Source: Caldimicrobium thiodismutans (GTDB taxonomy: Bacteria; Desulfobacterota; Thermodesulfobacteria; Thermodesulfobacteriales; Thermodesulfobacteriaceae). From it: 32,000 nt of DNA. The stretch is from contig NZ_AP014945.1 of the NCBI RefSeq assembly GCF_001548275.1, positions 720,001 to 752,000 on the forward strand, given 5' to 3'. Below, piece by piece: positions 4,714 through 22,133 of the stretch. Position numbers and translations under genes: made by a program. The notes beneath the pieces were generated by a model that ran no database searches, was not told the DNA's origin, and saw only the letters and a list, made by a program, of their open reading frames with translations. Positions within the stretch are counted from its first letter, which is position 1. The number at the start of each line of letters is the position of its first letter.

Positions 4714-4762
4714 TTTATGTGCCTTTAAAAGGCAAAATAAAAACTTAAGAGGAGGTGCAGAC

Positions 4763-7266: not shown

Positions 7267-8884
7267 CTGCACTGAATGTAAGATCTGTATAAAAGCCTGC
7301 CCTTTTCTTGAAAAATATGGCCTTCCTAAGGAGATAATTCTTCAGAGAAAAGAAGAGGTTTTTTATTGCACAAACTGTTCAGCTTGTAGTTTCCTTTGTA
7401 AAGAAGGGTTAGATCCTGCAGAGGCTCTCTATTTTCTGAAAGTTTCCCTTCTTGAAGAAGGTTCAACTCTTGGAGAAAAACTTAAAAAAAGTGCCCTTTC
7501 CTTTACCAAGAAAATTCATTCCTTTCCCATTTCTCACTGGGAAAAGGCTGAAAGAATTTTCTGGCCAGGATGTAGTTTATGGGGAACTTATCCCCATTTA
7601 ATTAAAGAGTTATTAAAAATTTTAAATAAATTTTCTGATAAAAAAATAGTTTTGGTTCTTGATTGTTGTCTTGATCCTCTCTATCAAATCGGAGCTTTGG
7701 GGGAGACTAAAAAGGGCTGGCAGGAGCTAAATCAGAGATTTTTGGATTATGGCATTAATGAAGTAATCGTTGCCTGCACAAATTGTTATAAAATTTTTAA
7801 AAGATTTAGCAATAACCTAAGGGTTTTTCATATTCTTGAGATACTTCCTGAGGAAGAATTTCAAAATACCCTCAATAAGCCTTTTTTCCATCTTCCCTGT
7901 CCAGCCTTTAAGGAAATGGACTTAAAAGAAAAAATTGTAGAAAAATTTAAAGATAAAGTGGACAGGGTTTTACCTTATCCTTCTTGTTGTGGAGCAGGGG
8001 GTGGGGCCTATTTTAGTGAGGAAATTTCTGAAAGCTTCCTTGAAAAAACCCTTAAGCTTGCTGGTAAAAGACCCATTTTAACCTTTTGTTTTGGTTGCAA
8101 AAATCGTTTTCTTAAAAAGGGGGAAAGAGCCCTTCACCTGCTTGAAACCCTGAAAGGGATTAAGCCCCTTGAGAGCCATGTTTCTTCAGCTAAAAAATGG
8201 TTTAATCGCATAAAATTTTCTCTTCAGAGAAAAATTACAAGGCCAAAAAGCTTCTTTTTTCTTTTATTTTTTCTTTTGATGCTTATAAGCTTTTACTTTC
8301 AATGGAGAGGTTTTTTAAAGGCCGAAAATTTTGCTGATACTATTAAAGCCTTTTCTGGACATCCCCTTTCTATAATATTATATTTAATAATATATACAAT
8401 TGCTCCAAGCTTTTTTATTTCAAGTCTTGCTTTAACTTTACTTGCAGGTTTTTTATGGGGTCCTCTCTTTGGAGGGTTAATAGCCTTAACAGGGGCAACC
8501 CTCGGAGCAACCCTTTCTTTTCAACTGGCAAGATATTTTTTTAGAGAGTCCCTAAAAACCCGCTTAGGTTTAGAAAAATGGAAATACTTTGATGAAATTA
8601 CAAAAAAACACGGCTGGAAAGCGGTTGCCTTTGTAAGACTTTTTCCCCTTTTTCCCTTTCCCGTGGTTAACTATCTTTTTGGATTAACCTCAATTGATCT
8701 GAAAACCTATGTTATTTGCACCTTTTTCTTTATGGCTCCTGCAGGTTTTGCCTATACAGGCCTTGGCTTCTCCTTAAAAAGCATTCTCTTTGAAGGAAAG
8801 TTCTTTCCCTTATTTCTTGTTCTTGCCTTTCTTTTTACTCTCACTATTCTTTTAAGATATCTTTCCAAAAAATGGAAACTTTAG
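7217..8884 (+). CDS. Fusion protein: 2x[4Fe-4S]/CCG-domain (HdrD/GlpC-like) oxidoreductase plus C-terminal TVP38/TMEM64 (DedA-superfamily) membrane domain
   Basis: Start chosen at ATG 7217 (AGGAG 9 nt upstream); the ORF also opens at 7145. Motifs: CTECKICIKACP and CTNCSACSFLC ferredoxin-type, WPGCSL...LDCCLDP and LPCP...PSCCGAGGG CCG-type. About 5 TM helices follow, with LLAGFLWGPLFGGLIALTGATLGATLSFQLARYF (SNARE_assoc/TVP38 signature). Confidence 0.7.
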   Translation: MPAQPFMEQAVSDLLHNCTECKICIKACPFLEKYGLPKEIILQRKEEVFYCTNCSACSFLCKEGLDPAEALYFLKVSLLEEGSTLGEKLKKSALSFTKKIHSFPISHWEKAERIFWPGCSLWGTYPHLIKELLKILNKFSDKKIVLVLDCCLDPLYQIGALGETKKGWQELNQRFLDYGINEVIVACTNCYKIFKRFSNNLRVFHILEILPEEEFQNTLNKPFFHLPCPAFKEMDLKEKIVEKFKDKVDRVLPYPSCCGAGGGAYFSEEISESFLEKTLKLAGKRPILTFCFGCKNRFLKKGERALHLLETLKGIKPLESHVSSAKKWFNRIKFSLQRKITRPKSFFFLLFFLLMLISFYFQWRGFLKAENFADTIKAFSGHPLSIILYLIIYTIAPSFFISSLALTLLAGFLWGPLFGGLIALTGATLGATLSFQLARYFFRESLKTRLGLEKWKYFDEITKKHGWKAVAFVRLFPLFPFPVVNYLFGLTSIDLKTYVICTFFFMAPAGFAYTGLGFSLKSILFEGKFFPLFLVLAFLFTLTILLRYLSKKWKL

Positions 8885-9498
8885 AGGCCTTAGGCCTTTT
8901 CTTCAAAATCCCTGAAAAGGGAAAAGTAAAAACAAGGCTTGCAAAGGATGTGGGGGAAGAAAGAGCTCTTGAAATATATAAAGAATTACTCTGGAAAACT
9001 GTAAAAATTTCTGAGCATCTCTTTCTTCAAAGAAGAATAAAGCTTTTTGGTTTTTACGAGGGTGAAAGATTAGCCCGGATAAAAAAATTTTTTAACTTAA
9101 ATTTTAACTGGAATTTTCTTCCCCAGAAGGGTAAAGGTCTCGGGGAGAGACTGAAGAGGGCAGGGGAGTTGCTATTAAATTTTGGTTTTGAAAGAATAGT
9201 CTTTATAGGTGCTGATTGTCCTTTTCTATCCCTGGATTATCTCAAATCTGCCTTTGAGAGACTCAAGGATTATCCCGTTGTTTTTGGACCTTCCGAAGAT
9301 GGAGGATATGTCCTGTTGGGATTTAATTTTCTTTTTAAAAATAGACTTTTTCTTTTATTTGATTATTTACCTTTTGAAACAACGAAACTTTTAGATAAAA
9401 CATTAGAGAGACTGAAACCTGAAGATTTTTCTCTTCTTCCAACCCTTTTTGATATAGACACCTTTGAAGATTTTCAAAAATATTTAAAACTGACTTGA
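8872..9498 (+). CDS. DUF2064/TIGR04282-like nucleotidyl/glycosyl-transferase ('transferase 1, rSAM/selenodomain-associated')
   Basis: 208 aa. FFKIPEKGKVKTRLA, GKGLGERL, FIGADCPFL and GPSEDGGYVLLGF match the DUF2064 pattern. Overlaps the upstream gene by 13 nt. Confidence 0.7.
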   Translation: METLEALGLFFKIPEKGKVKTRLAKDVGEERALEIYKELLWKTVKISEHLFLQRRIKLFGFYEGERLARIKKFFNLNFNWNFLPQKGKGLGERLKRAGELLLNFGFERIVFIGADCPFLSLDYLKSAFERLKDYPVVFGPSEDGGYVLLGFNFLFKNRLFLLFDYLPFETTKLLDKTLERLKPEDFSLLPTLFDIDTFEDFQKYLKLT

Positions 9499-9554
9499 CA
9501 AAGTTAAATTTTAGATTAAGTTTCAAGAAAAAATAATTCAAAGGAGGTGGAACT

Positions 9555-10154
9555 ATGTGCACAAAAGTTGGTGGCCTTGCTCCAGATTTTGAGGCTGGTG
9601 CCTATTTTCCCAATGGGGAGATCAAGAAGATTAAGCTTTCTGATTACAGGGGGAAATGGGTTGTCCTTCTCTTTTATCCTGCTGACTTTACCTTTGTTTG
9701 CCCTACAGAGCTTGTTGATGTAGCTGAGAAATATGAGGAACTTAAAAATCTCAATGTGGAGGTTATTGGAATTAGTATTGATACGGTTTTTGTTCACAAG
9801 GTCTGGCAAGAAGTTGAGCTTTCTAAGATGATTAGTGGAGGGGTTCCCTATCCCCTTGCCTCAGACCTTGGGGGAAAGATTGGTCAGCTCTATGGAGTCT
9901 ATGATGAAGCCCTTGGCCTTGATCTAAGAGGCACTTTTATTATAGATCCTGATGGGGTTCTTCAATCTGTAGAGATAAACAATGCCCCTGTAGGAAGAAA
10001 TGCAGATGAATTGGTAAGAAAGATTAAAGCCTTCCAGCATGTAAGAGCAACAGGTGGAAAGGAAGTATGCCCTGCAAAATGGGAACCAGGAAAAACCACT
10101 TTAAAGCCTGGAATTGAGCTTGCTGGAAAGGTTTACGAAGTCTATAAAAAATAA
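9555..10154 (+). CDS. Typical 2-Cys peroxiredoxin (AhpC/Prx1 family)
   Basis: 199 aa. APDFEA...YPADFTFVCPTE peroxidatic Cys motif, and resolving Cys in GKEVCPAKW. AAAGGAGGTGG SD. Confidence 0.9.
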   Translation: MCTKVGGLAPDFEAGAYFPNGEIKKIKLSDYRGKWVVLLFYPADFTFVCPTELVDVAEKYEELKNLNVEVIGISIDTVFVHKVWQEVELSKMISGGVPYPLASDLGGKIGQLYGVYDEALGLDLRGTFIIDPDGVLQSVEINNAPVGRNADELVRKIKAFQHVRATGGKEVCPAKWEPGKTTLKPGIELAGKVYEVYKK

Positions 10155-10170
10155 TTTTAAATTTATCTCC

Positions 10171-10200
10171 GGGGGGTTAAATGCCCCCTTCTTTTTATTT
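10171..10200 (+). terminator. Rho-independent terminator after the peroxiredoxin gene
   Basis: GGGGG(G)-ttaaatg-CCCCC hairpin followed by TTCTTTTTATTT. Confidence 0.6.
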
Positions 10201-10222
10201 ATATTTCAATTAAACTTAATCT

Positions 10223-10678
10223 GTGGATCTTTATTATTTTTCCTATACAGGAACCTCAAAAGAAATTGCCTTAGCTCTTGCCAGAAGATTTAATGCTATT
10301 CCAAAGGAAATAAAGACTTATTCCTTTCCCTATTCTTTTTGGCTTCTCCTTTCCTTTATCCCGGGTTTTGAGATTAGGGCTAACTTTGAGCCACCTCAAA
10401 GCCCTTATGGAGTTCTTGTTTTCCCGAAATGGACCTTTAATTGCCCCCCTGTAACCTATTTTTTAAAAAAAATATCTTTTGAAAAACTTATTCTTATCAT
10501 TACTTATGGAGGCTGGCGTGAAATACCTTATGGAGAATACTATAAAAAATTGGCCTCCAAAAACTGTAAAGAAGTTGAAGTTATATATATCAAAAGAAAA
10601 CTATGGGAAAGAAAAAAAGAGCTCTCATTATTAGAAATTGAAAGGAATATTAAAGAAGTTTTAAATCAGTTTAAATAA
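10223..10678 (+). CDS. Hypothetical protein with a flavodoxin-like N-terminal signature
   Basis: 151 aa, GTG start, no clear SD. DLYYFSYTGTSKEIA resembles the YFSGTGNT loop of flavodoxin-like/EFR1-type proteins. Weak assignment. Confidence 0.4.
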   Translation: MDLYYFSYTGTSKEIALALARRFNAIPKEIKTYSFPYSFWLLLSFIPGFEIRANFEPPQSPYGVLVFPKWTFNCPPVTYFLKKISFEKLILIITYGGWREIPYGEYYKKLASKNCKEVEVIYIKRKLWERKKELSLLEIERNIKEVLNQFK

Positions 10679-10724: not shown

Positions 10725-11594
10725 ATGAGACTTAAAATAACCTTTTGTCCTGTAGATAAAGATCAGATTATTCTTCCCATTCAATATAATGAAATTTTAC
10801 AGGGATTTATTTATAATTCTCTTGAAAGGGGGCTTGCAGAGAGAATTCACAATTTTGGATTTGAAGACCCTAAAACCAAGAGAAAATTCAAACTTTTTAC
10901 TTTTTCAAGGCTTTTAAGCTTACAAAAGCCCCTTATTAAAAATGGGAATATAGTATTTTCAGGAAGTTTCACTTTTTTTGTAGCCTCTCCTGTAAAGGAA
11001 TTTATTCAATCCCTTGCTCAGAGTATTTTAACAAGAGAAGTTTTAACCCTTGGGAAGGTGAGGGTGCTTTTGCAGTCTGTTGAGGTTATGAGTCCTCCCA
11101 GATATCAGGAAAAAATTTATGTGAGGACTCTTTCTCCTATTACTGTTTATAGCACTTTCAGGAAACCAGATGGAAAAAAGATAACTTATTATTATAGTCC
11201 TTTTGAAGAGGACTTTAGGAAGCAAATTTTAGAAAATTTAAACAAAAAACTTAGATCTCTTGGGAGGGAGGCGGATTTAGATGGCTCAATAAGACCCTAT
11301 AAAGTGAGTTCAAGGAATCAGAGAATTATTTTATATAAAAATATGGTTATTAAGGCTTGGGATGGGGTTTTTGAGTTATGTCTTCCGAGTTTTGAGCCTA
11401 CCTATGAGGAATTGAAACACCTATATCTTTATACAACTTCTTTGCAAAAAACTCGTTTTGAGCCTACCTATGAGGAATTGAAACGGAATGCCTCAATATC
11501 AATTTTTTCTCTTTTTAAAAGTTTTGAGCCTACCTATGAGGAATTGAAACTCGCATCCTCTAAAATATGTAAAACACACCCTAAAATGTTTTGA
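10725..11594 (+). CDS. cas6: CRISPR endoribonuclease Cas6, 3'-truncated (probable pseudogene). The Cas6-like part is 10725-11388; the rest of the ORF is read-through into CRISPR repeats and spacers.
   Basis: MRLKITFCPVDKDQIILPIQYNEILQGFIYN is a typical Cas6 N-terminus. VIKAWDGVFELCLP aligns to the strand just before the Gly-rich loop of Cas6 (compare P. furiosus ...[34 protein letters not shown]). The loop itself is absent, and CRISPR repeat 1 starts at 11389. Confidence 0.7.
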   Translation: MRLKITFCPVDKDQIILPIQYNEILQGFIYNSLERGLAERIHNFGFEDPKTKRKFKLFTFSRLLSLQKPLIKNGNIVFSGSFTFFVASPVKEFIQSLAQSILTREVLTLGKVRVLLQSVEVMSPPRYQEKIYVRTLSPITVYSTFRKPDGKKITYYYSPFEEDFRKQILENLNKKLRSLGREADLDGSIRPYKVSSRNQRIILYKNMVIKAWDGVFELCLPSFEPTYEELKHLYLYTTSLQKTRFEPTYEELKRNASISIFSLFKSFEPTYEELKLASSKICKTHPKMF

Positions 11595-12296
11595 GCCTAC
11601 CTATGAGGAATTGAAACCTCTATATTGAAAATTAAATTAATAGCAGTAAAAACAAGTTTTGAGCCTACCTATGAGGAATTGAAACATCTCTTTTAAGAGG
11701 TTCTGTCTTTCAGCTTCAAGCTGTTTTGAGCCTACCTATGAGGAATTGAAACGCTATAACTCCCGCAAGCCTTTGAGAAAATGGCTCAAGGTTTTGAGCC
11801 TACCTATGAGGAATTGAAACTCCTTTTTACCAGGGGCTCCTTCTCATCAAGCTCTACGTTTTGAGCCTACCTATGAGGAATTGAAACAGTAAACTATTTT
11901 ATCAGAAGATTTTTCTAGCTTTCGTTTTGAGCCTACCTATGAGGAATTGAAACTAATCCTCCTTTTAGATATACATCAGCGATAAATTTTTTTTTGAGCC
12001 TACCTATGAGGAATTGAAACCCAGATTAAGAGATGTTGGCATTGATATTTCCAAAATTTTTTTGAGCCTACCTATGAGGAATTGAAACAAGATATAATGA
12101 AGGTAAAGGATATTTATTCATTTTTGGAGGTTTTAAGCCTATCTATAAGGAGTTGAAACGAGATTTTCAAGATTTTCAAGATGTTCAGTGTTTTCAGGAT
12201 TTTAGGTTTTGAGCCCACCTATATGGGGTTAAATTATGATTTTTCTGGCTATGACTATTTATTTTTGTTTTTAGCCTACCTATAAGGGGTTGAAAT
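11389..12296 (+). CRISPR. CRISPR array 1: 14 copies of the 30-bp repeat GTTTTGAGCCTACCTATGAGGAATTGAAAC (11 intact or 1 mismatch, last 3 degenerate)
   Basis: Repeat starts: 11389, 11455, 11521, 11588, 11656, 11723, 11791, 11858, 11924, 11991 (G1T), 12059 (G1T), 12130 (4 mismatches), 12206 (degenerate), 12267 (degenerate). Spacers are 36,36,37,38,37,38,37,36,37,38,41,46,31 bp. The ATTGAAAC 3' end (the usual 8-nt crRNA handle) and the degenerate distal repeats both indicate + orientation. Confidence 0.92.
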
Positions 12297-12316
12297 CTTA
12301 CAGAAGATGTTATAAT
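12290..12316 (+). promoter_or_regulatory. Extended -10 promoter for the lipoprotein gene, whose -35 comes from the last degenerate CRISPR repeat
   Basis: TTGAAA (12290-12295, inside the repeat 3' end), 15 nt including TGT, then TATAAT (12311-12316), giving TGnTATAAT. The AAGGAGG SD precedes the ATG at 12365. Confidence 0.4.
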
Positions 12317-12364
12317 GATTAAAATTAAGTTTTTCATACACAAAAAACAAAAAGGAGGTGTCTT

Positions 12365-12973
12365 ATGAAAGAAGTGGTTAAGAAGTTTGTAAAGTTTATG
12401 AGGAAGATGGAAGCAAAAAGAGTTTTACTTGGTGTTTTAAGTTTAGCAGGAGCTGGATTTTATTTACAGGGATGTAGTTTAGTGCCTGATCCCACATCGT
12501 GGTTAGTTGATGATATTTATCATAGAAGGGACTGGAAACATGATGAAATCTCCACACTGGGAGCTTCTATTGTAAGAAAAGACAAAAATACCTATGAATT
12601 TACACTTGAATATACTTATTTTAGAAGAGATGATCAAAAAACAGCACCAGCAACTTTAGAAGTCTGGTATAAGGATAAGTCAATTTTTAAAAGAAATGCT
12701 TTTGTAGAAATGAAGTTATTTGATAGAGGTCCAATTCATAGAAAAATGCCAGTTCCCACTGAAACTACTTACCACATAAAACTTCCTGTTGTTCTTAAAG
12801 AAGGAGAATCTATAAAAATAGACATCTACACCAATAACACTATGGCAACTTCTATTTGTAAAATAGGTGAATTAAATGAAAAAACACCCTGTGATCATAA
12901 AACATCTCATAAATCCACATTTGGATTACCAGTTAACAAAGAGAAAACAACAAAAGAAAACAAAAACGAATAG
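12365..12973 (+). CDS. Hypothetical lipoprotein
   Basis: 202 aa. Signal peptide with lipobox LLGVLSLAGAGFYLQGC. No recognisable domain. Lies between array 1 and array 2. Confidence 0.6.
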   Translation: MKEVVKKFVKFMRKMEAKRVLLGVLSLAGAGFYLQGCSLVPDPTSWLVDDIYHRRDWKHDEISTLGASIVRKDKNTYEFTLEYTYFRRDDQKTAPATLEVWYKDKSIFKRNAFVEMKLFDRGPIHRKMPVPTETTYHIKLPVVLKEGESIKIDIYTNNTMATSICKIGELNEKTPCDHKTSHKSTFGLPVNKEKTTKENKNE

Positions 12974-13048
12974 AAAAAAAAGTAGCCTTAATGTAATCAA
13001 GCTATCTTAGAGTAATACAAAGAAATTTATATAGAAATAAACAAAAAA

Positions 13049-13210
13049 GTTTTGGGCCTACCTATGAGGAATTGAAACCTGAAGATGATTTTGAGCGTAA
13101 CAGGAAATTTCTTGTTTTGAGCCTACCTATGAGGAATTGAAACATTGATATCTTCCCATATTTCAGGAAAGTCTTCCTCGGTTTTAAGCCTATCTATAAA
13201 GAAAGGGTGG
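13049..13210 (+). CRISPR. CRISPR array 2 (remnant): 2 near-perfect repeats plus 1 truncated degenerate repeat
   Basis: Repeats at 13049 (A7G), 13114 (perfect) and 13181 (GTTTTAAGCCTATCTATAA..., identical over 19 nt to degenerate repeat 12 of array 1). Spacers are 35 and 37 bp. An AT-rich, leader-like stretch lies at 12974-13048. Confidence 0.75.
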
Positions 13211-13299
13211 TAAGAAGTAGTTAAAAATTTTCTTTAGTCTTAAAAGATTTGGACTTATCCATACACTTGACAAAAATAATTTTTTGTGATATTTAAAAA

Positions 13300-13330
13300 G
13301 TGTTGAGCATACCTATATAGTATTGAAAAC
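13300..13330 (+). repeat. Orphan degenerate CRISPR repeat
   Basis: GTGTTGAGCATACCTATATAGTATTGAAAAC matches about 24/30 of the consensus with a 1-nt insertion. It is preceded by TTGACA at 13266-13271 and an extended -10-like TGTGATATT. Confidence 0.5.
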
Positions 13331-13424
13331 TTAACTTATTTAGAGGCAGCCGAAGGTGATAAGAATGCTTGAAGTAGGATAGGGAGTAAGAGGTAAAGAG
13401 AACAAGAAAAAAGGAGGGGATAGT

Positions 13425-13898
13425 ATGCCAACATGCCCATCTTGCAAGATGGAAACAGCAGCTGGACGATGGTGTTCAGTTTGTCATAGGAACTTGCAAA
13501 ATCCTGAACTTGGAAGGCTTGTCTCGCCAGCGAAGCGCCTTGGAGCTTTCGTCTTGGACATCGTGCTGTTCTTCGTGTTGATGTTAATACTTAGATTGTT
13601 TTTCTCGCCCATTATTAAAAAAGAATCAGATATTGTTTTTTTATCTTTTTTGGTGCTGCTTATGGTCGAGCTGTTGTTTTTTTCGCGGGGGACCACACTC
13701 GGAAAGATGGTGTTAGGAATGAGGGTAGTCAAAACGGATGGGAGGCGCGCAGGCTTCTTTACCATGCTCTTCAGAGAATTGATCGGGAAGTCCATCAGCG
13801 GATTTTTCTTTTCCTTAGGGTTCTTGTGGATCTTACTTGATCGGGAGCGACAGGGCTGGCACGACAAGCTGGCGAGCACATATGTGGTTGAGCGCTGA
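13425..13898 (+). CDS. RDD-family membrane protein with an N-terminal zinc ribbon
   Basis: 157 aa. CPSCK...CSVCH ribbon, then RDD-domain features (RLGAFVLDIVLF..., GTTLGKMVLGMRVV, QGWHDKLASTYVV). GGAGGGG SD. G+C is markedly higher than in the flanks. Confidence 0.75.
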   Translation: MPTCPSCKMETAAGRWCSVCHRNLQNPELGRLVSPAKRLGAFVLDIVLFFVLMLILRLFFSPIIKKESDIVFLSFLVLLMVELLFFSRGTTLGKMVLGMRVVKTDGRRAGFFTMLFRELIGKSISGFFFSLGFLWILLDRERQGWHDKLASTYVVER

Positions 13899-13995
13899 GG
13901 TCGGCTGAGTAATTCAGGTGAATATAGCACTCCTGTGCCCGTTTTCTGAGGTCTATGAGCGAGAGGATGAGTGGTCTGTGCCTGCAGAGCAAAGG

Positions 13996-14013
13996 ATTTT
14001 GAACCTACCTATT
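13996..14013 (+). repeat. Orphan CRISPR repeat fragment (5' half)
   Basis: ATTTTGAACCTACCTAT matches 16 of the first 18 consensus positions; the 3' half is lost. Confidence 0.35.
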
Positions 14014-14039
14014 AAAAATTTATATAGTATTTTATAAAC

Positions 14040-14240
14040 ATGCCTTTTATTATCATCATTTTAAGCATATTTATAGGATATTTTATTGGTGCATTGGTTA
14101 TTTTCATAATTCCTCTCATTCTTTTAAGTTATCTATCCTATTTTACATTTAAGCAAAAACTGGCACTATATATTCAGGTAAGAAGAGAAAGAAGAAAACT
14201 TAAAAGACTTTTAAACGACAGACTAAGTTATATTCCTTAA
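14040..14240 (+). CDS. Small hypothetical membrane protein (2 TM helices, basic C-terminus)
   Basis: 66 aa. Very hydrophobic N-terminal 40 aa, then RRERRKLKRLL. No SD seen. Weak call. Confidence 0.35.
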   Translation: MPFIIIILSIFIGYFIGALVIFIIPLILLSYLSYFTFKQKLALYIQVRRERRKLKRLLNDRLSYIP

Positions 14241-14300
14241 AATTTTTGTAAAAAATTTTAAATTTCTTAAAGCATTATGGGTTATTTACTCAAATTTTTC

Positions 14301-14651
14301 TCAGCGAGCTTTTAAATAAGTGTCTCTAAGATGCTCAGGGAGTAGCTCTGGAGGAAAGATTCCCTCAGCAATTTTATCCAGATGCCACCACCAACGATCA
14401 AGCCCCTCATATTCCCTATCATAAGGTGGGTCCGCTTTATTCCTGATAGCGTTTATAATGGCTTTTTTGTCAAGCTCAATCACCTTGGGGTGGTTATCTA
14501 AACCCGCTTCATGGATTAGGTCTCTTATAGAAAGCCAGGTAGGTGCGGTGTGATAAAAAAAGGCTTGTCCATCCTCTTCATCTATGCCTAATTCCCAATC
14601 TTCTATCCACTCCTTATAGGGTCTTGACTTATAGTATTCTGATAAACCCAC
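14301..14651 (-). CDS. Hypothetical protein (116 aa, acidic, Trp-rich)
   Basis: GTG start preceded by GGAGAGGAAGAGAGG. No recognisable domain. Its start overlaps the end of an upstream start-less ORF. Confidence 0.5.
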   Translation of the reverse strand: MGLSEYYKSRPYKEWIEDWELGIDEEDGQAFFYHTAPTWLSIRDLIHEAGLDNHPKVIELDKKAIINAIRNKADPPYDREYEGLDRWWWHLDKIAEGIFPPELLPEHLRDTYLKAR

Positions 14652-14910
14652 CTCTCTTCCTCTCCTTTACCCATTGTATGAAAGGCTTGTTCAGTCTGTA
14701 AAAACTTTTAATCAAAAGCGCATCATCCTTACTCACCACTATTTTATCACCTTTCTTGAAAATATAGTAATCCCCCTTTTCTGTTCTTTCAACATAGATT
14801 TCATCCGGGCTCTGAACGATCTTTTTTGCTTCTCTGTAGTATTCTTTCGGTGAGCTAAATATGGAATTTTGACTTATAGTATTCTGATATGTAGTAGAGG
14901 AGTTTCGAGC
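14632..14910 (-). pseudogene. Start-less ORF remnant (93 codons) whose 5' end is cut off by an orphan CRISPR repeat
   Basis: Hand translation: ...SSPKEYYREAKKIVQSPDEIYVERTEKGDYYIFKKGDKIVVSKDDALLIKSFYRLNKPFIQWVKERKRGGFIRIL*. There is no ATG, only a late GTG/TTG. The upstream in-frame stop lies inside the repeat at 14911-14913. Confidence 0.3.
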
Positions 14911-14993
14911 TTACCTATGAGGAATTGAAACTTCTAGCAGTAACAGTCAGAATAATCAACATTTTAAACATACCTATGAAGAGGATTTGAAAG
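14902..14993 (+). CRISPR. Orphan mini-array: near-perfect repeat, 29-bp spacer, degenerate repeat
   Basis: 14902-14931 is GTTTCGAGCTTACCTATGAGGAATTGAAAC (28/30). The spacer is TTCTAGCAGTAACAGTCAGAATAATCAAC. 14961-14993 is ATTTTAAACATACCTATGAAGAGGATTTGAAAG (degenerate), and it overlaps the last codons and stop of the minus-strand GGDEF/EAL gene. Confidence 0.5.
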
Positions 14994-17469
14994 AGGTAAG
15001 GGGTAATTGTGGAGAAGGTTTCCCAAGGTGAAAACCCTGACCAAACTCAACTCCAAAGTCCCTTAATTTACTAGCAAGCTCCTCACTCTCTACATATTCA
15101 GCAATGACTTTTATATTCAATCCTTTACAAAGGGTAACTATACTTTCTATAATAGCAAGATCAACAAGAGCTTCTCTGCTAAGTCCTATTACAAAATCTC
15201 CTTCTATCTTAACAAAATCAATTATAAAATGCTTAATATATTGAAAAGAGGAAAAGCCTGCTCCAAAATCATCGATACAGAATTTAAACCCATAATCCTG
15301 AAGATTTCTTATAAATTTTTCTAAAAGGGTTAAATTTTTAACTGTTTCTCTTTCAGTTAATTCAAAAATAATTTTTTCCGAGGGGAAAGAATAATTTTTC
15401 ACAAGTTCTTTAATTTTCTTTAAAAATTCAGGAACAATTAAAACTTTAGGGCTTAAATTAAAGAAAAAATATCCCTGATAATTGGTTTCCTTGGCTAAAG
15501 ATAAAGCCTTTTCCATGTTGATAAAATCCATCTCCATTATAAAACCCATACTCTCTGCAATACCAATAAATCTTTGGGCAGGAATAACTTCATCTTCTAT
15601 TTCTATTCTCATTAATACCTCACACCCAAAAAGCTCTCCGGTTTTAAGGTCATATATAGGTTGAAAATATGGAAGTATCCTTTTATTTTCAACAGCTTCT
15701 TTTACAAGAAGGATGGTATCAGTTATTTCTTTTTGATAACTTAAAATCTCCTCAGCAGTAGGATAAACTATTTTATTTTTTCCTTCTTTTTTAGCTTTAT
15801 ACATTAAAGTATCTGCAAGGGTAAAAAGATCTTTGCTGGTCTCCCCATGATCAGGAAAAATGGCTATTCCTATTGATGTAGTTAGGAAAACCGGTTTACC
15901 ATCTGGTGCCTCTATTTTGAAATTGGATAGGTTTTCTTTAATTCTTTCAGCAACTGATACTCCCTGTGTAAGGTCACACAAGGGAAGTATCAAAGTGAAT
16001 TCATCTCCTCCATATCTTGCTAAGATATCGCCCTTTCTTTTTATCTCCTCCAAGAATTTAGCAAACTCTCTTAAAAATTCATCCCCAAAGGAGTGACCAT
16101 AGGTATCGTTAATTAACTTAAAGTTATCTAAATCTACTATTAAAAGGGCAAATTTATAATTGTATCTTTTGGCTCTTTCAACCTCATATTCTAACAGTTC
16201 CCAGAAAGTTCTCTGATTATAAAGGTGAGTTAATGGATCACGAGTAGCATAAAATTCAAGTTCTTTAGTATATTTATTTATAGCTCTTATAGAGCCAATC
16301 ACATTTAATAGGGAAATCAAAACAGTTTCAATAGCTATCTCTTGAGTGGAAGTTAATTTTTCATGAGAAAGCCCAATCCCAACAATCCCCCCAATCTTTG
16401 GAGATTCAAGGATTAAACTTTTAGTTTTCAAATAAAAATTCTTGAAAGCCTCTTCAGAATAACTCTCATCTGCTAAAACCACATTGTGAATGAAATTAAA
16501 ATTATTTATTTTGAATTTTTCTAAAAATATTTTTCTAATCATACCTTCCATATCTTCTTTGAAAGATCGTGTAGGATTTTTCAACCAGAAAATCTCAGTA
16601 TCAAAAAGATCTTCCTCTACATAAAAAAGAGCAAAAATTGAAACAATTTCAACAATCTTATTCACCTCAATTAGAAGATTATTAACATAATATTTCCAAT
16701 CTCTTATAAATTCAGAAGTTATAATAAATTTTTCAAGAAGACTTAGTTCAAATTTAAAAAGCTCTCGATCAATAGCAAGCTCTTTCACTTTTCTTAAGAA
16801 GTCATCCGTAATCTCTAAAAGCCCATCAAATTCATAAATTCCTGTTTTTGAACTTGTTAAAAGATCTTCATTCTCAATTAATTCATCAAACTTTGAAGAT
16901 CTTCTTATCCTCTCCTTTAATTCTTCAATGGGTTTTACAAACTTTTTACCTTGAAGTTTCCCTATAAAATAAACTCCAAGCAGAGGAAATAGGGAAAAGA
17001 AAAGAAGGAAAAGTAAAAGAGTCTGATGTATTTCTTTTAAATCCTCTTTAAGAGAATTCTCAAGCACAAGAACCCCAAAAAGATCGCCTTCTGAAATTCC
17101 CCTATGGCAGTTTAAACACATCTTTGTGGCAGTAATATTATATTTTATATAAAGAGTATCTCCTTTCTTAGTAATTATATATTCCTTATATAATGGGATT
17201 TCTTTTACTTCTGAAGGTTTTTCAAGGGTTACCTTTAGTTTGTCAGTTTGAAAAATTCTGAGAAAATTGTCTAATTCTTCACGGGTAAATCCTTTGAGCA
17301 TTCCCTGATATAGAGAAGAAAAAATGGCCTTGGCTTCAATTTGAGATCGGAAAATTAGAGATTTTTCAAAATAGTTTTTTATAAATAAAAAAAGAAAACC
17401 ATAAAGAATTAGAGATAGAAGAAAGTACCCTAAAAGGGTATGAATTAAAAGTTTTTGATGAAGTCTCAT
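14974..17469 (-). CDS. Membrane-bound signalling protein: periplasmic heme-c (CXXCH) sensor domain, TM helix, uncharacterised middle region, GGDEF diguanylate cyclase and EAL phosphodiesterase
   Basis: 831 aa. N-terminal TM helix; MCLNCHRGISEGDLFGVLVLE (a Tll0287/DUF3365-like heme-c motif); a second TM helix; RYGGDEF; then EVLMR...DDFGAGFSS...KIEGDF EAL-domain motifs. Confidence 0.85.
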   Translation of the reverse strand: MRLHQKLLIHTLLGYFLLSLILYGFLFLFIKNYFEKSLIFRSQIEAKAIFSSLYQGMLKGFTREELDNFLRIFQTDKLKVTLEKPSEVKEIPLYKEYIITKKGDTLYIKYNITATKMCLNCHRGISEGDLFGVLVLENSLKEDLKEIHQTLLLFLLFFSLFPLLGVYFIGKLQGKKFVKPIEELKERIRRSSKFDELIENEDLLTSSKTGIYEFDGLLEITDDFLRKVKELAIDRELFKFELSLLEKFIITSEFIRDWKYYVNNLLIEVNKIVEIVSIFALFYVEEDLFDTEIFWLKNPTRSFKEDMEGMIRKIFLEKFKINNFNFIHNVVLADESYSEEAFKNFYLKTKSLILESPKIGGIVGIGLSHEKLTSTQEIAIETVLISLLNVIGSIRAINKYTKELEFYATRDPLTHLYNQRTFWELLEYEVERAKRYNYKFALLIVDLDNFKLINDTYGHSFGDEFLREFAKFLEEIKRKGDILARYGGDEFTLILPLCDLTQGVSVAERIKENLSNFKIEAPDGKPVFLTTSIGIAIFPDHGETSKDLFTLADTLMYKAKKEGKNKIVYPTAEEILSYQKEITDTILLVKEAVENKRILPYFQPIYDLKTGELFGCEVLMRIEIEDEVIPAQRFIGIAESMGFIMEMDFINMEKALSLAKETNYQGYFFFNLSPKVLIVPEFLKKIKELVKNYSFPSEKIIFELTERETVKNLTLLEKFIRNLQDYGFKFCIDDFGAGFSSFQYIKHFIIDFVKIEGDFVIGLSREALVDLAIIESIVTLCKGLNIKVIAEYVESEELASKLRDFGVEFGQGFHLGKPSPQLPLTSFKSSS

Positions 17470-17504
17470 TTTAAAGCATAAAGATTTTAATTATTAATTT
17501 TTTA

Positions 17505-17533
17505 AGTATATAACTACCACCTCTAATTGTCAA
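17505..17533 (-). promoter_or_regulatory. Sigma70-like promoter for the GGDEF/EAL gene
   Basis: The minus strand reads TTGACA (17533-17528), 17 nt, TATACT (17510-17505). Confidence 0.35.
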
Positions 17534-17743
17534 TATCTAATTGCAAATTCTCCAAAGATGAGCTCAGGGCTTTTGCCTTATTTTAAACCCCACTTTTTTG
17601 AGTTTTCAAAAAAGCATTAAACCTTAAGATTTCTATTTTACATAATATATCTTATCAGAAGTTAAGATGACCTCATTTCTTTTTCTACTCCTCAGGCTCA
17701 CTGGAGAAAAAGACTTTTATTAAGAGAGATTTAAAAAATTGAT

Positions 17744-18976
17744 TTAAGCACCATATTTTGTAAGACGGCCTGCATGAGCAAGTAACAATTGCATAAGCTT
17801 GAAACTCGGAAAGATCCCAAGTTCCCCCTTTAAACACTCCCTCTCTGTTAATCTCAGGGATAAACCACCAAGGCAATAAGGAGAGTTTATAAGCACTGGC
17901 ACGGGATGCCAGGAGTGAGACTTCATTATACAAGGTGTTGAGTGATCTCCTGTAATTGCCAAAACATTAAAATTTAATGAGACTATTTCTAAAAAATGCC
18001 TATCAAATTCTTCAATTACCGAAATTTTTCCTTCATAATTTCCATCTTCCCCATAGGAATCAGTTTTTTTAATGTGAACAAAGAAAAAATCGTAATCCTG
18101 CCAGGCCTCTTTAAGAGTTTTTACCTCTGCATCAATGGATTCACCCTCAAAAGTAATTAAATCCATTCCTACAAGCCTTGCAAGCCCCTTATACATTGGA
18201 TAAACTGCAATACAGGCGCTTTTCAGACCGAACTTTTCTGGAAAGGGTTCCAGGGCAGGCTTTACTGAAAATCCACGCAACAAAACATAATTTGCCTTTG
18301 GTTCATTTTTCAGCAATTTGGCAGCCTCTTCAATAAATTTTCTGGCAATTAGTGCAACCTTTTCGGCCTCTGGATTTTCACCAGTTGGAAGTAAGGGAGG
18401 CTTTTCTGTGCTCTGGGGATCTGTATCATTTATTTTTTCAAAAAAATGAGAAAGCTTATAGGGAAATCTTAGAATAAGGGAAAAACGATGTTCTTTACCT
18501 GAACATAAAATGACCTCGGCTTCATCAATCTTTTTAATATTTTCAGATAAATATTTAATTAATCTTTTGTTTTCTTCTGTGGGTATTCTACCAGCCCGTC
18601 TGTCAATTACAATTGGAAGACCATTTTCATATTTGACTGTAGCAAAGTTGCCCCGGATAGCCACATCTGTATCTTTAACTTCAAGCCCTACTCCAACTGC
18701 CTCAAGGATGCCCCTTCCAATTTCATATTTTAATGGCTCGTATCCAAAAATACCTAAATGCCCAGGGCCAGAACCTGGAGTTATTCCATAATCAACAGGG
18801 ATGTGAAGACCGGTTGCTGACCTGGATGCAAGGTTGTCTAAGTTAGGGGTTTTGGCAAGCTCTAAAGGGGTTTTGCTATCTTTTACAGGTAAGTCCCCTA
18901 CCCCATCAAGAACAATTAAAATAATTTTAGATTGGGCATCGTTCTTTATCAATTTTTTCAGACCTTCCATCCTCAT
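17744..18976 (-). CDS. apgM: Cofactor-independent phosphoglycerate mutase, archaeal type (ApgM)
   Basis: 410 aa. ILIVLDGVGD, TPNLD, GSGPGHLGIFGY and ITGDHSTPC metalloenzyme-superfamily motifs characteristic of ApgM. Confidence 0.85.
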   Translation of the reverse strand: MRMEGLKKLIKNDAQSKIILIVLDGVGDLPVKDSKTPLELAKTPNLDNLASRSATGLHIPVDYGITPGSGPGHLGIFGYEPLKYEIGRGILEAVGVGLEVKDTDVAIRGNFATVKYENGLPIVIDRRAGRIPTEENKRLIKYLSENIKKIDEAEVILCSGKEHRFSLILRFPYKLSHFFEKINDTDPQSTEKPPLLPTGENPEAEKVALIARKFIEEAAKLLKNEPKANYVLLRGFSVKPALEPFPEKFGLKSACIAVYPMYKGLARLVGMDLITFEGESIDAEVKTLKEAWQDYDFFFVHIKKTDSYGEDGNYEGKISVIEEFDRHFLEIVSLNFNVLAITGDHSTPCIMKSHSWHPVPVLINSPYCLGGLSLRLTERECLKGELGIFPSFKLMQLLLAHAGRLTKYGA

Positions 18977-19136
18977 CCCCCATAGTCATCTCTTCTTTCA
19001 TTTGTTCTATTTCTTTTTGATATTCCTTTACAGGCCTTTCTATGCCGCAGGTAAGACACCTTACCCGGGCATTTGCTCATTTACCACAAATAACAGCCTT
19101 TCCACCACAATAATGGCAAGTTAAAAAGATATCCAA
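18927..19136 (-). CDS. Candidate small selenoprotein (69 aa, zinc-ribbon-like, CxxU) with an in-frame TGA at 19077-19079. Alternatively a 19-codon ORF or a pseudogene.
   Basis: The TTG start lies 5 nt after a GAGGGGG SD. Translation: MDIFLTCHYCGGKAVICGK-U-ANARVRCLTCGIERPVKEYQKEIEQMKEEMTMGDEDGRSEKIDKERCPI. A SECIS-like hairpin lies at 19042-19072. See findings. Confidence 0.35.
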
Positions 19137-19138
19137 AT

Positions 19139-20302: not shown

Positions 20303-20378
20303 ATCTCCAAAAACCCCCTTTTCTTTAAGTTTAGTGACAGAATAATTTTAATCCAGCAAAGGGTTTTGTCAAATTCTG

Positions 20379-20393
20379 GTATGCCTCCATATC
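20379..20393 (-). promoter_or_regulatory. Conserved upstream box (copy B), 6 nt upstream of the mrp promoter -35 element
   Basis: The minus strand reads GATATGGAGGCATAC-cagaat-TTGACA-16 nt-TAAAAT, upstream of the mrp ATG at 20302. Confidence 0.35.
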
Positions 20394-20546
20394 TTTTGTG
20401 ACTCAAGAGGATTTTTTCAACTACTTCTGTTGTAGGAAAAAGCATATGAACTTATGCGAAATTCTATTAGCAACCCTGATGGATTAAAGTTTTTTTCCTT
20501 TTTATCCGATAAAATTAAATGATAAAATTTACATGGGGGGCCTCCT

Positions 20547-20900: not shown

Positions 20901-21027
20901 GTATCCTTTATAAGTTTATATCCTTGTAAGATTTATTTTCCCCTTTTCTATACACAAAATTTATAATATTACCCTTCAAAGGGGATCACAACAAGGTGCA
21001 AACAGATAGGTCTGGCCCTACATTAAG

Positions 21028-22130: not shown

Positions 22131-22133
22131 GCC

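What the first reader, a model, noticed from the sequence alone, without database searches (positions are those of the whole stretch)
11389..14993. CRISPR repeats scattered over 3.6 kb with whole genes occupying 'spacer' positions
After the 14-repeat array the same repeat keeps recurring: 13049, 13114, 13181 (psi), 13300 (psi), 13996 (half), 14902 (28/30) and 14961 (psi). The intervals hold complete genes: the lipoprotein (between 12296 and 13049), the RDD/zinc-ribbon gene (13331-13995), and the small TM protein plus the 116-aa ORF (14014-14901). The terminal repeat of array 2 shares the substitutions G6A, C13T and G18A with repeat 12 of array 1, so the pieces share ancestry. At three junctions a repeat abuts a cut or ended coding sequence: the cas6 3' end, the start-less ORF at 14910, and the stop of the GGDEF/EAL gene. 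This pattern points to repeat-mediated recombination, cargo insertion into an ancestral array, or ectopic Cas1-Cas2 integration. It is not an ordinary array.
Basis: seen in the sequence. Interest (0 to 1): 0.65.

Follow-up and report, generated by a model that had tools for sequence, protein, structure and literature searches.

The report
Wrecked CRISPR locus holding captured genes
This is the remains of a bacterial CRISPR immune locus that lost its cas genes and holds pieces of foreign DNA between leftover repeats, and one piece, a phage gene, sits at the same end of CRISPR arrays in at least three unrelated microbes, so arrays may capture gene-sized DNA.

Summary
Every listed repeat copy is real: 20-30 of 30 matches, against about 0.35 chance hits of 20 or more per window.

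The region is a decayed type I-B-like CRISPR locus. Relatives 96-98% identical have a full-length cas6 followed by cas8b and more cas genes. In the window, homology stops at the first base of repeat 1, so the cas operon, the leader and the leader-proximal repeats were deleted.

The genes in 'spacer' positions are foreign DNA:
- The lipoprotein cassette lies in a mobile-element-like island in a relative.
- The RDD gene has 47% GC against about 29% and 22% beside it.
- The start-less ORF plus the 116-aa ORF are a phage fragment: the C-terminus of a Mu-F/PBECR3 head protein and its downstream partner gene.

An unexpected result is that this partner gene sits at the trailer end of CRISPR arrays in three other unrelated metagenomic organisms. 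It is always convergent with the array. In two cases the donors are identifiable phages (85-91% nt identity).

Five joints, here and in those loci, place foreign DNA at or within a few bases of the first base of a repeat; the other side of each insert is imprecise. I infer, at about 35% confidence, an integrase-type joining at repeat borders, followed by erosion and selective retention of the partner gene. The mechanism is not shown.

The parts
10725..11388 (+). cas6 remnant (codons 1-221). It lacks about 28-37 C-terminal residues, including the glycine-rich loop. The ORF then reads on into the array.
   Evidence: Pfam, NCBIfam and PADLOC Cas6b matches are truncated at the model's C-terminus. 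Relatives L011 (258 aa) and L025 (258 aa) are full length and diverge from the window exactly at 11389.
11389..12296 (+). Array 1. It has 14 repeats: 11 intact, then three degenerate trailer repeats at 12130, 12206 and 12267. It has no leader and is fused directly to the cas6 remnant.
12310..12970 (+). Lipoprotein cassette (gene 12365-12973). It is derived from a mobile element, and the protein has only one homologue cluster in 5.8 billion proteins.
   Evidence: Only one homologue was found. The cassette is 93.6% nt identical to L023:9880-10556, which lies in an island with Prim-Pol, two N6/N4 methyltransferases, helicases and iteron-like repeats and has no CRISPR repeats of this family. L010 shows the same context.
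12971..13048 (.). 78-nt AT-rich stretch of unknown origin, immediately upstream of array 2. It is unrelated to the upstream flank of the same array in relative L024.
13049..13203 (+). Array 2. It has repeats at 13049 and 13114, plus a copy at 13181 that is truncated after 23 nt and resembles the repeat at 12130.
   Evidence: It is shared with L024 from the second repeat onward. The first spacer differs between the two strains.
13300..13329 (+). Degenerate repeat (23/30). It shares G18A and A19T with the repeat at 12206.
   Evidence: It is conserved in L024.
13343..13995 (+). GC-rich foreign segment (47% GC against 29% and 22% beside it). It carries the zinc-ribbon/RDD gene at 13425-13898.
   Evidence: Composition change points fall at 13343 and 14010. 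Pfam RDD match. The nearest representative proteins are only 55-57% identical. No viral relatives were found.
13996..14012 (+). Half repeat (the 5' 17 nt). The GC-rich insert ends at its first base.
   Evidence: Present in L024.
14040..14240 (+). Small ORF (66 aa) with a hydrophobic N-terminus and a basic tail. It is convergent with the 116-aa gene. Whether it is a real gene is uncertain.
   Evidence: The only family hit is below threshold. A similarly placed ORF in L038 is not significantly similar.
14301..14651 (-). Intact 116-aa gene of an uncharacterised family with a WWWHLDK motif. In phages it is the gene directly downstream of Mu-F/PBECR3 head proteins. It is antisense to the repeats.
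   Evidence: No match in Pfam, NCBIfam, PHROGs, PADLOC or PDB. Against L024 it shows 4 synonymous and 1 nonsynonymous changed codons. Promoter-like sites lie at 14702-14673 and 14792-14764 on the minus strand.
14652..14864 (-). Start-less remnant of the C-terminal, PBECR3-like part of a phage Mu-F-like head protein.
   Evidence: tblastx and protein alignment to the C-termini of 433-489-aa phage proteins. Those proteins carry Phage_Mu_F, and one also carries PBECR3 below the Pfam cut-off.
14869..14889 (.). 21-nt exact duplicate (TTGACTTATAGTATTCTGATA) of 14624-14644, the Mu-F stop / partner-gene start. It lies inside the 37-nt slot just upstream of the repeat at 14902. It is unexplained.
   Evidence: (family D6). 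A relative has the same junction.
14902..14931 (+). Repeat variant (28/30; T5C and C10T).
   Evidence: Identical in L007 and L024.
14932..14960 (+). 29-nt spacer. It is conserved in relatives, and no target was found.
14961..14993 (+). Terminal degenerate repeat with a 3-nt insertion. Its reverse complement encodes the last codons and the stop of the GGDEF/EAL gene (14974-17469, minus strand).

Best explanation
The region is the wreck of CRISPR immunity in a Caldimicrobium-like member of the Thermodesulfobacteriaceae.

Shown:
1. A deletion specific to this lineage removed everything from cas6 codon 222 through cas8b, the rest of the cas genes, the leader and the youngest repeats. The cas6 stump is now joined to the first base of a repeat, which leaves a leaderless orphan array (array 1).
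2. Downstream lies a second, older array with no adjacent cas genes (13049-14993). Its decayed repeats are separated by foreign DNA. This state predates the split from a strain that is 98.7% identical.
3. All three gene-bearing intervals are foreign: a lipoprotein cassette from a mobile element, a GC-rich RDD gene, and a phage fragment made of the PBECR3-like C-terminus of a Mu-F head protein plus its intact downstream partner gene.
4. The same partner gene, with or without a broken Mu-F remnant, sits at the trailer end of CRISPR arrays in three other unrelated organisms. It is always convergent with the array. At least two of these captures had independent phage donors.

Inferred:
- Long foreign or chromosomal DNA ends were joined to the 5' border of repeats by an integrase-type (Cas1-Cas2 half-site) reaction, and the other end was resolved imprecisely. 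I give this step about 0.35.
- Deletions later eroded the inserts.
- The partner gene was kept by selection, most likely as an immunity protein against the injected PBECR3 RNase domain of such phages.

In the window, the arrays can no longer acquire spacers. Array 1 is probably still transcribed from the cas6 promoter. Its transcript would only be processed if another Cas6 exists elsewhere in the genome.
For: cas operon deletion:
- L011 (96% aa) and L025 (98% nt) have a 258-aa Cas6 followed by Cas_TM1802/cas8b and further cas genes. Both lose homology to the window exactly at 11389.
- Caldimicrobium contigs L012-L015 keep the synteny of window 3370-10678 and carry at least 10 kb of cas genes after cas6.
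- The 32-kb window has no other cas genes.

Foreign inserts: lipoprotein; RDD; phage fragment.

Age of the right-hand part:
- L024 is 98.67% identical over 13049-27301 and has all the same repeat remnants and inserts. It has a different first spacer and a different upstream flank.
- L007 shares the junction of 14902, 14961 and the GGDEF/EAL gene.

Recurrence at array trailer ends:
- L039: a 672-nt insert lies between two perfect repeats and is 85% nt identical to phage L016.
- L037: a 1.75-kb insert lies between the terminal repeat of a 48-repeat array and an outer degenerate repeat. It is 90.6% nt identical to phage L035, with a second piece from that phage's baseplate J gene.
- L038: a tandem-fused partner gene lies at the trailer of an array from a different repeat family.

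Joints of foreign DNA to the first base of a repeat:
- Window 11388|11389.
- Window 13048|13049.
- L039 5757|5758.
- L037, within 5 nt of 4833|4834.
- Window 13995|13996, by composition.
The opposite sides are imprecise: 13 nt, 13 nt, 90-115 nt, or truncated repeats.

Selection on the partner gene:
- It is intact in all four arrays, while the Mu-F part is truncated or frameshifted.
- Synonymous changes outnumber nonsynonymous ones: 4 against 1, and 29 against 14 changed codons.

Established knowledge:
- Cas1-Cas2 joins a 3'-OH to repeat borders. The Pyrococcus furiosus enzymes integrate at every repeat and form half-sites at both borders in vitro (PMC6698737).
- Mu-F-PBECR fusions are predicted to be effectors packaged in the virion and injected into the host (PMC5512222).
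Against: - No case of Cas1-Cas2 inserting DNA of 0.6-1.7 kb in vivo is known to me.
- The repeats flanking the window's inserts are dissimilar and decayed, so a repeat duplication cannot be shown here.
- Only five joints were examined. Two of them rest on composition or on alignment by eye.
- At 13049 the first spacer also differs between the window and L024, so that breakpoint could lie anywhere in 13049-13113.
- The phage fragment in the window is separated from the repeat at 14902 by 12-37 nt, which includes an unexplained 21-nt duplicate.
- The function of the partner protein is untested. It matches no known family, and its structure model is poor (pLDDT 52).
- The synonymous excess in L039 against L016 may have arisen in the phage lineage before capture.
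- Whether the source genome still has cas genes elsewhere is unknown.
Confidence: 0.55

Rival explanations
1. Illegitimate insertion plus survivorship. Foreign fragments land at random in or near arrays. Only those at the trailer end survive, because they do not block the array, and only those carrying a useful gene are kept. The repeat-edge joints are coincidence, or reflect fragile sites at repeat borders.
For: All four partner-gene inserts lie at trailer ends, where disruption costs least. L037 shows clear later erosion by internal deletion. The far-side junctions are imprecise.
Against: Three joints verified against relatives or donors fall on the first base of a repeat within a 66-nt period. 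That is roughly (3/66)^3 by chance. The orientation is the same in all four arrays.
Confidence: 0.25
2. Homologous recombination through CRISPR sequences. Phages or other mobile elements that carry solitary repeats, mini-arrays or protospacers recombine with the host's repeats or spacers. This places their DNA between repeats, and most of it is later deleted.
For: A 32%-GC viral contig (L003) carries a two-repeat mini-array of this repeat family. A 21-nt exact duplicate of the Mu-F stop region lies in the spacer slot next to the repeat at 14902. The idea has been proposed for solitary repeat units (PMC8616872, citing Faure et al. 2019).
Against: The donor sequences run uninterrupted through the junction points and carry no repeat-like sequence there. 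This holds for phages L016 and L035 and for island L023. The three arrays cut the Mu-F gene at three different codons: about 45, 346 and 362. The window's spacers match none of the fetched phage loci.
Confidence: 0.2
3. An ordinary multi-array neighbourhood. Independent arrays flank genes that were always there, so nothing was inserted.
For: In L024, array 2 has its own upstream flank (psd, dnaB-like) and behaves as a separate array with a strain-specific first spacer. Good-to-degenerate repeat gradients recur three times across the region.
Against: The lipoprotein cassette lies at another locus in a relative. The RDD segment is compositionally foreign. The third interval is a truncated phage gene plus its neighbour. 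More distant GGDEF/EAL orthologues have no arrays next to them.
Confidence: 0.07
4. Site-specific integration of a temperate phage into the CRISPR repeat as its attB, like PhiAP1.1 in Streptococcus pyogenes, followed by prophage decay.
For: PhiAP1.1-like prophages integrate into repeats and are usually found at the degenerate terminal repeat (bioRxiv 10.1101/2020.10.09.333658). The inserts here are also at terminal repeats.
Against: The phage-side junction differs in each array, so there is no fixed attP. No integrase remnant is present. The donor contigs show head and baseplate genes at the junction, not an att-integrase module. The lipoprotein and RDD inserts are not phage DNA.
Confidence: 0.08

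Closest known systems
Orphan or degenerate CRISPR arrays left after cas gene loss (for example E. coli I-F CRISPR4 and Enterococcus faecalis CRISPR2; reviewed in PMC8616872)
   Same: An array persists without functional cas genes while close relatives keep the cas operon. The trailer repeats are degenerate.
   Different: Here the deletion joint is mapped to the first base of a repeat inside a still-recognisable cas6. The leftover repeats are interleaved with gene-sized foreign DNA. No spacers against cas genes were found.
Prophage integration into CRISPR repeats (PhiAP1.1, S. pyogenes type II-A; bioRxiv 10.1101/2020.10.09.333658)
   Same: Phage DNA lies between CRISPR repeats, preferentially at the terminal repeat. 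The result is array rearrangement and spacer loss.
   Different: There is no attP-attB homology, no integrase and no complete prophage. The phage-side breakpoints vary, only a 0.6-1.75 kb fragment remains, and one particular gene is retained each time.
Canonical Cas1-Cas2 spacer integration, including integration at every repeat and half-site products in vitro (P. furiosus, PMC6698737)
   Same: New DNA is joined exactly at repeat borders. In L039 the insert lies between two perfect repeat copies, as a spacer would.
   Different: The inserts are 15-50 times longer than the 35-41-nt spacers. They sit at the trailer end or at internal repeats, not at the leader. Only the border at the repeat's 5' edge is precise. 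One event is an intramolecular deletion.
Virus-borne mini-arrays and solitary repeat units, including RNA anti-CRISPRs (PMC6858448, PMC10651486)
   Same: Isolated or degenerate repeats occur next to genes from mobile elements. A viral contig with a mini-array of the same repeat family exists (L003).
   Different: The window's isolated repeats are chromosomal remnants, conserved in position among strains. They are not carried by the inserted DNA.
Orphan immunity genes of polymorphic-toxin systems, and Mu-F-PBECR polyvalent phage effectors (PMC5512222)
   Same: A toxin-like C-terminal domain is followed by a small conserved partner gene. The host keeps the partner while the toxin part is broken.
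   Different: An immunity function is only inferred. The location inside CRISPR arrays has not, to my knowledge, been described.

Membership tests
CRISPR array (Rfam CRISPR-DR2 repeat; type I-B-associated) | At least three near-identical direct repeats of 23-47 nt, separated by unique spacers of similar length | tested here: met
   Array 1 has 14 repeats at 61-76-nt spacing with unique spacers of 31-46 nt. Rfam CRISPR-DR2 reaches its gathering score at 15 copies.
CRISPR array (Rfam CRISPR-DR2 repeat; type I-B-associated) | An AT-rich leader upstream of the first repeat and an adjacent adaptation module (cas1, cas2) | tested here: not met
   Repeat 1 abuts cas6 codon 221. No similarity to the leaders of L005 or L024 was found. 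The window has no cas1 or cas2.
Type I-B CRISPR-Cas locus | cas6b, cas8b, cas7, cas5, cas3, cas4, cas1 and cas2 present | tested here: not met
   Only a truncated cas6b remains. Relatives have cas6 plus Cas_TM1802/cas8b and more.
Orphan or degenerate CRISPR locus | The array is retained while close relatives have the cas operon at the same site | tested here: met
Prophage integrated at a CRISPR repeat (PhiAP1.1 type) | A fixed attP core identical to part of the repeat, an integrase, and a prophage flanked by split repeats | tested here: not met
   The junction falls at different Mu-F codons in the window, L037 and L039. The donors have no repeat-like core, and no integrase is present.
Canonical spacer (Cas1-Cas2 full-site product) | Insert of spacer length (here 31-46 nt) between two identical repeat copies | tested here: not met
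   The inserts are about 650-900 nt in the window, 672 nt in L039 and 1.75 kb in L037. The flanking repeats are identical only in L039.
Repeat-like regulatory mini-array (CreA or crRNA-like RNA) | Two repeat-like units flanking a pseudo-spacer that partially matches a cas or toxin promoter | tested here: inconclusive
   The units at 14902 and 14961 with their 29-nt spacer are conserved in L007 and L024. No match of at least 68% was found in the window or in the relatives' cas loci. Short seed-only matches were not evaluated.
Toxin-immunity pair (PBECR3 domain plus partner) | The partner gene lies immediately downstream of the toxin domain, and the partner neutralises the toxin | not testable with these tools
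   The gene order is conserved: a Mu-F C-terminal match lies upstream of the partner gene in 10 of the 21 metagenomic loci and in the four viral contigs examined. Neutralisation needs an experiment. The PBECR3 hit itself is below the Pfam cut-off (21.6 bits against 30).

The most novel reading that the evidence does not exclude
CRISPR arrays can take up gene-sized DNA. An integrase-type reaction joins long phage or chromosomal 3' ends to the 5' border of repeats, often the terminal one. This creates 'giant spacers' and also deletions such as the loss of the cas operon seen here. Hosts then keep useful cargo. In particular, an uncharacterised phage gene (WWWHLDK family, the partner of the injected Mu-F-PBECR3 effector) has been domesticated repeatedly at array trailer ends as an anti-phage immunity gene.
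Probability: 0.3. Interest if true: 0.85.

Novelty: new variant of a known kind. Interest (0 to 1): 0.6.

Why it matters
Decay of CRISPR loci and orphan arrays are well known, and so is one case of prophages integrating into repeats.

Three things appear to be new:
- One cas-operon deletion is mapped to the base, ending on the first base of a repeat.
- Every gene in a 'spacer' position can be shown to be foreign DNA.
- One phage gene recurs at the trailer end of arrays in four unrelated lineages, from separate phage donors, and the joints fall at or within a few bases of the repeat's first base.

If these joints are made by the adaptation integrase, arrays would be sites of gene capture and genome rearrangement, and not only stores of short spacers. 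It would also give a concrete route by which CRISPR-Cas destroys itself.

The partner gene is also a candidate for a new anti-phage function, namely neutralising an injected phage effector. That can be tested directly.

Tried and rejected
- Exact look-ups of the window's lipoprotein and RDD proteins found nothing.
- More distant GGDEF/EAL orthologues (L008, L009) have no shared synteny and no arrays, so they could not show the ancestral state.
- No similarity was found between the leaders of L005 or L024 and any part of the window.
- Homology of the lipoprotein cassette beyond 12310 and 12970, up to the flanking repeats, is not significant (p about 0.06 and 0.11). I do not claim that it fills the slot exactly.
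- The window's spacers match none of the fetched phage or cas loci, so there is no evidence for spacers against cas genes or against the resident phage fragment.
- Exact searches for the 14902 repeat variant in metagenomes and for the 21-nt duplicate in viral contigs returned nothing. The metagenome collection evidently lacks the JGI sample that holds L024.
- The RDD donor could not be identified. The best representative proteins are 55-57% identical and have uninformative sources.
- PHROGs, PADLOC, Pfam, NCBIfam and a PDB profile search gave nothing for the partner protein, the lipoprotein or the small membrane ORF.
- The single-sequence AlphaFold model of the partner protein was too poor to search with.
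- The similarity between the small membrane ORFs of the window and L038 is not significant.
- I considered that arrays 1 and 2 arose by a segmental duplication, and rejected it. The spacers next to the shared repeat variant are unrelated.

Full report
**1.

The 30-nt unit GTTTTGAGCCTACCTATGAGGAATTGAAAC occurs 11 times at 29-30/30 between 11389 and 12059. Three degenerate copies follow, at 12130 (26), 12206 (22) and 12267 (25). Further copies lie at 13049 (29), 13114 (30), 13181 (20, first 23 nt only), 13300 (23), 13996 (22, 5' half) and 14902 (28). The copy at 14961 scores only 17/30 ungapped, but aligns at 24/28 once a 3-nt insertion is allowed.

Markov shuffles of the whole window give 0.35 hits of at least 20/30 and about 0.01 of at least 22/30. 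There are no copies anywhere else in the 32 kb. Rfam's CRISPR-DR2 model passes its gathering score at 15 copies.

The 3' ATTGAAAC end and the good-to-degenerate gradient both indicate transcription on the + strand. The copies at 12206 and 13300 also share G18A and A19T.

**2. What happened on the left: the cas operon was deleted.**

The ORF at 10725 is a Cas6b. It matches the family models only up to about 30 positions before their C-terminus, and then runs straight into repeat 1.

Two independent close relatives have a 258-aa Cas6 with the glycine-rich loop segment (GLGSKNSQGFG), followed by a Cas_TM1802 (cas8b) gene and further cas genes. They are L011 (96% aa) and L025 from MAG GCA_017880035.1 (98% nt). 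Both lose all similarity to the window at position 11389, the first G of repeat 1: the relatives read ...CTTCCGAG|GGAGCTATT, and the window reads ...CTTCCGAG|TTTTGAGCC.

More distant Caldimicrobium contigs (Cas6 67% identical) keep the complete gene order of window 3370-10678 upstream of cas6, and have at least 10 kb of cas genes after it. The window has no other cas gene.

So a deletion specific to this lineage removed the cas operon, the leader and the youngest repeats. The cas6 stump is undecayed, which suggests the deletion is recent. Array 1 is now a leaderless orphan fused behind the cas6 promoter.

**3. What lies on the right: a second, older array.**

A JGI contig (L024) is 98.67% identical to window 13049-27301. 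It contains the same series: two good repeats, the truncated 12130-like repeat, the degenerate repeat at 13300, the RDD gene, the half repeat, the small ORF, the 116-aa ORF, the start-less ORF, the 14902 variant, the 14961 degenerate repeat, and the GGDEF/EAL gene.

Left of its first repeat, L024 has about 200 nt and then psd and a dnaB-like gene. It does not have the lipoprotein gene, array 1 or cas6. Its first spacer (40 nt) also differs from the window's (35 nt).

A relative with 94.7% nt identity (L007) shares the junction of 14902, 14961 and GGDEF/EAL.

The 13049-14993 part is therefore a separate array without adjacent cas genes, and its inserts predate these strain splits. The window and L024 diverge at the 5' edge of that array's first repeat, or at most one repeat-spacer unit further in.

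**4. The 'genes in spacer positions' are all foreign DNA.**

*(a) The lipoprotein.* It has a single homologue cluster among 5.8 billion proteins. In MAG GCA_017880035.1 the segment equivalent to window 12310-12970 (93.6% nt) lies on another contig. There it is flanked by iteron-like tandem repeats, Prim-Pol, two N6/N4 methyltransferases and helicases, and is followed by an outer-membrane-protein-like gene. No repeats of this CRISPR family occur there. Similarity beyond 12310 and 12970 is not significant.

*(b) The RDD segment.* It has 47% GC, against 29% and 22% on its two sides. The composition change points fall at 13343 and 14010. That is 13 nt after the degenerate repeat at 13300, and at the half repeat. 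The nearest known proteins are 55-57% identical.

*(c) The phage fragment.* The start-less ORF is the last 75 or so codons of a phage Mu-F-like head protein whose C-terminus is PBECR3-like. The 116-aa ORF is the gene that follows it in phages, in the native order. Per PMC5512222, Mu-F-PBECR fusions are predicted to be effectors packaged in the virion and injected into the host.

**5. The unexpected result: the partner gene recurs at array trailer ends.**

I searched metagenomes with the 116-aa protein (21 loci) and viral contigs. This gave about 15 non-redundant lineages of an uncharacterised family with an invariant WWW core inside a WWWHLDK motif. The family has no match in Pfam, PHROGs, PADLOC or PDB.

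Most members lie in phage contexts: terminase, portal, Mu-F, partner gene, gp25, baseplate J. Three further lineages, from organisms with different GC content, repeats and neighbouring genes, have the gene at the trailer end of a CRISPR array.

- **L039.** Repeat at 5728-5757, then a 672-nt insert, then repeats at 6430, 6502 and onward. Both flanking repeats are perfect. Positions 5758-6323 are 85% nt identical to phage contigs L016, L030, L031 and L033. The homology begins at the very first base after the repeat. That base corresponds to Mu-F codon about 346, the start of the PBECR3-like domain.
- **L037.** An outer degenerate repeat at 4804-4833 is followed by a frameshifted, nearly complete Mu-F gene and an intact 125-aa partner gene. 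Next comes the terminal repeat at 6581 of a 48-repeat array, which has cas1- and cas4-like ORFs (judged from their N-terminal sequences only) on the leader side. The insert is 90.6% nt identical to phage L035. It also holds a 100-nt piece of that phage's baseplate J gene, so a longer phage segment has been eroded. Phage homology begins within 5 nt of the repeat's edge.
- **L038 and L045.** A tandem-fused 227-aa version lies between rho and the degenerate terminal repeat of an array from a different repeat family.

In all four lineages the partner gene is convergent with array transcription and is intact, while the Mu-F part is truncated or frameshifted. Each of the three Mu-F-bearing inserts (window, L037, L039) cuts Mu-F at a different codon. 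L039's copy is closer to a phage (85%) than to L037's copy (74%). These are therefore separate captures and not one inherited insertion.

Synonymous changes outnumber nonsynonymous ones in the partner gene: 4 against 1 changed codons for the window against L024, and 29 against 14 for L039 against L016.

**6. The pattern of the joints.**

Five joints place unrelated DNA directly against the first base of a repeat, in array orientation:
- window 11388|11389 (two relatives);
- window 13048|13049 (L024);
- L039 5757|5758 (four phage contigs);
- L037, about 4833|4834;
- window 13995|13996 (by composition).

The opposite side of each insert is imprecise. There are 13 nt after the repeats at 12267 and 13300. 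In L039 and L037, 90-115 nt of unmatched sequence lie there. The repeats at 13181 and 13996 are cut short.

For three well-verified joints in a period of about 66 nt, the chance of coincidence is of the order of 1e-4.

Joining a DNA 3' end to the 5' base of the repeat is the chemistry of the first Cas1-Cas2 transesterification. The P. furiosus enzymes integrate at every repeat of an array and form half-sites at both borders in vitro (PMC6698737).

I therefore favour, at about 35%, an integrase-type half-site joining of long DNA ends. The second end would be resolved illegitimately. The same reaction can explain both the insertions and the cas operon deletion.

This is inference. No kb-sized Cas1-Cas2 insertion in vivo is known to me, and the sample is small.

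**7. Rivals.**

- *Homologous recombination through phage-borne repeats or protospacers.* It has a precedent as an idea (PMC8616872). Two local hints support it: the viral mini-array L003 of this repeat family, and the 21-nt duplicate of the Mu-F stop region in the slot next to 14902. Against it, the donors carry no repeat at the joints.
- *PhiAP1.1-type site-specific prophage integration into repeats.* This is real in S. pyogenes, and is usually seen at the terminal repeat (bioRxiv 10.1101/2020.10.09.333658). Here the phage-side junctions vary and there is no integrase.
- *Random insertion with survivorship at the harmless trailer end.* This explains the position of the inserts but not the phase of the joints.
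- *An ordinary multi-array neighbourhood with ancestral genes.* This is contradicted by section 4.

**8. Function today.**

The window's arrays cannot acquire spacers, because there is no leader and no cas1 or cas2 nearby. The Cas6 stump lacks its RNA-binding glycine-rich loop. Any crRNA production would depend on cas genes elsewhere in the 1.81-Mb genome (its size is), which I could not inspect.

The one element that looks maintained is the partner gene. Promoter-like sites lie inside the Mu-F remnant at 14702-14673. I propose that the gene neutralises the injected PBECR3 effector of related phages. This is untested.

**9. Verdict.**

Its core, a decaying CRISPR locus, is a known kind of thing. 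The base-level deletion joint, the all-foreign cargo and the recurrent capture of one phage gene at array trailers make it a new variant that is worth a systematic survey.

Noticed in passing
window 3191-3241 and 20379-20418; L007:944-994; L024:6886-6923: A short element of about 40-50 nt is repeated in intergenic DNA, next to a tRNA gene (3081-3152) and near FlaG. In relative L007 it sits exactly where synteny with the window breaks upstream of the GGDEF/EAL gene. It may be a small repeat or MITE involved in rearrangements.
   Followed up: no
L020:10561-12065, and L021; compare L022:10561-10760: In another Caldimicrobium lineage, two small genes (a 189-aa secreted protein and a 121-aa membrane protein) are inserted at the 3' end of a frameshifted cas6, with a direct duplication of about 180 bp of the cas6 3' end. 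A sister genome lacks the insertion. This is a second example of small envelope-protein cargo landing at cas6 or array borders.
   Followed up: partly
L023:17985-18058 (minus strand) and L023:9500-9880: The relative's mobile-element-like island carries a mini-array-like pair of 30-nt repeats from a different family (GTTTGCAATCTACCAATGAAGAATTTAAAT and GTTTACAATCTGCCAAAGAAGAATCTAAAT). They are separated by only 14 nt and follow an AT-rich leader-like stretch. This may be a crRNA-like regulator or an RNA anti-CRISPR. Iteron-like tandem repeats of about 40 nt lie just upstream of the lipoprotein gene.
   Followed up: no
L003:5293-5389; L001:4108 and L002:8449: A 32%-GC IMG/VR contig carries a two-repeat, one-spacer mini-array of the window's repeat family, with stem-loop-like inverted repeats on either side (seen by eye, not scanned). 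A 60%-GC viral contig carries two solitary copies (27/30) in opposite orientations about 20 kb apart at most.
   Followed up: partly
L038:7591-7608: One spacer of the L038 array, which belongs to a different repeat family, begins with CCTATAAGGAATTGAAAC. That is the 3' 18 nt of the window-family repeat in its G18A form. It looks as if a spacer was acquired from another CRISPR repeat, or from a mobile element that carries one.
   Followed up: no
window 13425-13898 against L024: The RDD gene is by far the most diverged stretch between the window and the 98.7%-identical relative. It has about 25 substitutions and compensating 1-nt indels, the proteins are 157 and 149 aa, and there is an 18-nt indel just downstream at 13946. 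This suggests relaxed constraint or recombination.
   Followed up: partly
L026, L029, L038 (loci): The WWWHLDK domain also occurs as tandem double and triple repeats within one polypeptide: 214 aa, an open frame of about 495 aa, and 227 aa.
   Followed up: no
L025:1-9481: In MAG GCA_017880035.1, a type III-B (cmr2-cmr6, csx1-like) module with an NTase/HepT pair lies directly upstream of cas6. It replaces the 5' half of the 151-aa gene that the window has at 10223-10678. The neighbourhood is rearranged on both sides of cas6 among close relatives.
   Followed up: no
L006:2772-3900: In Ca. Thermodesulfobacterium syntrophicum, a solo full-length cas6 is followed by about 1.1 kb with no ORF that looks like a gene, and then by the trailer end of a long array of the identical repeat on the opposite strand. 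That array is convergent with cas6, which is the opposite orientation to the window's array 1.
   Followed up: no
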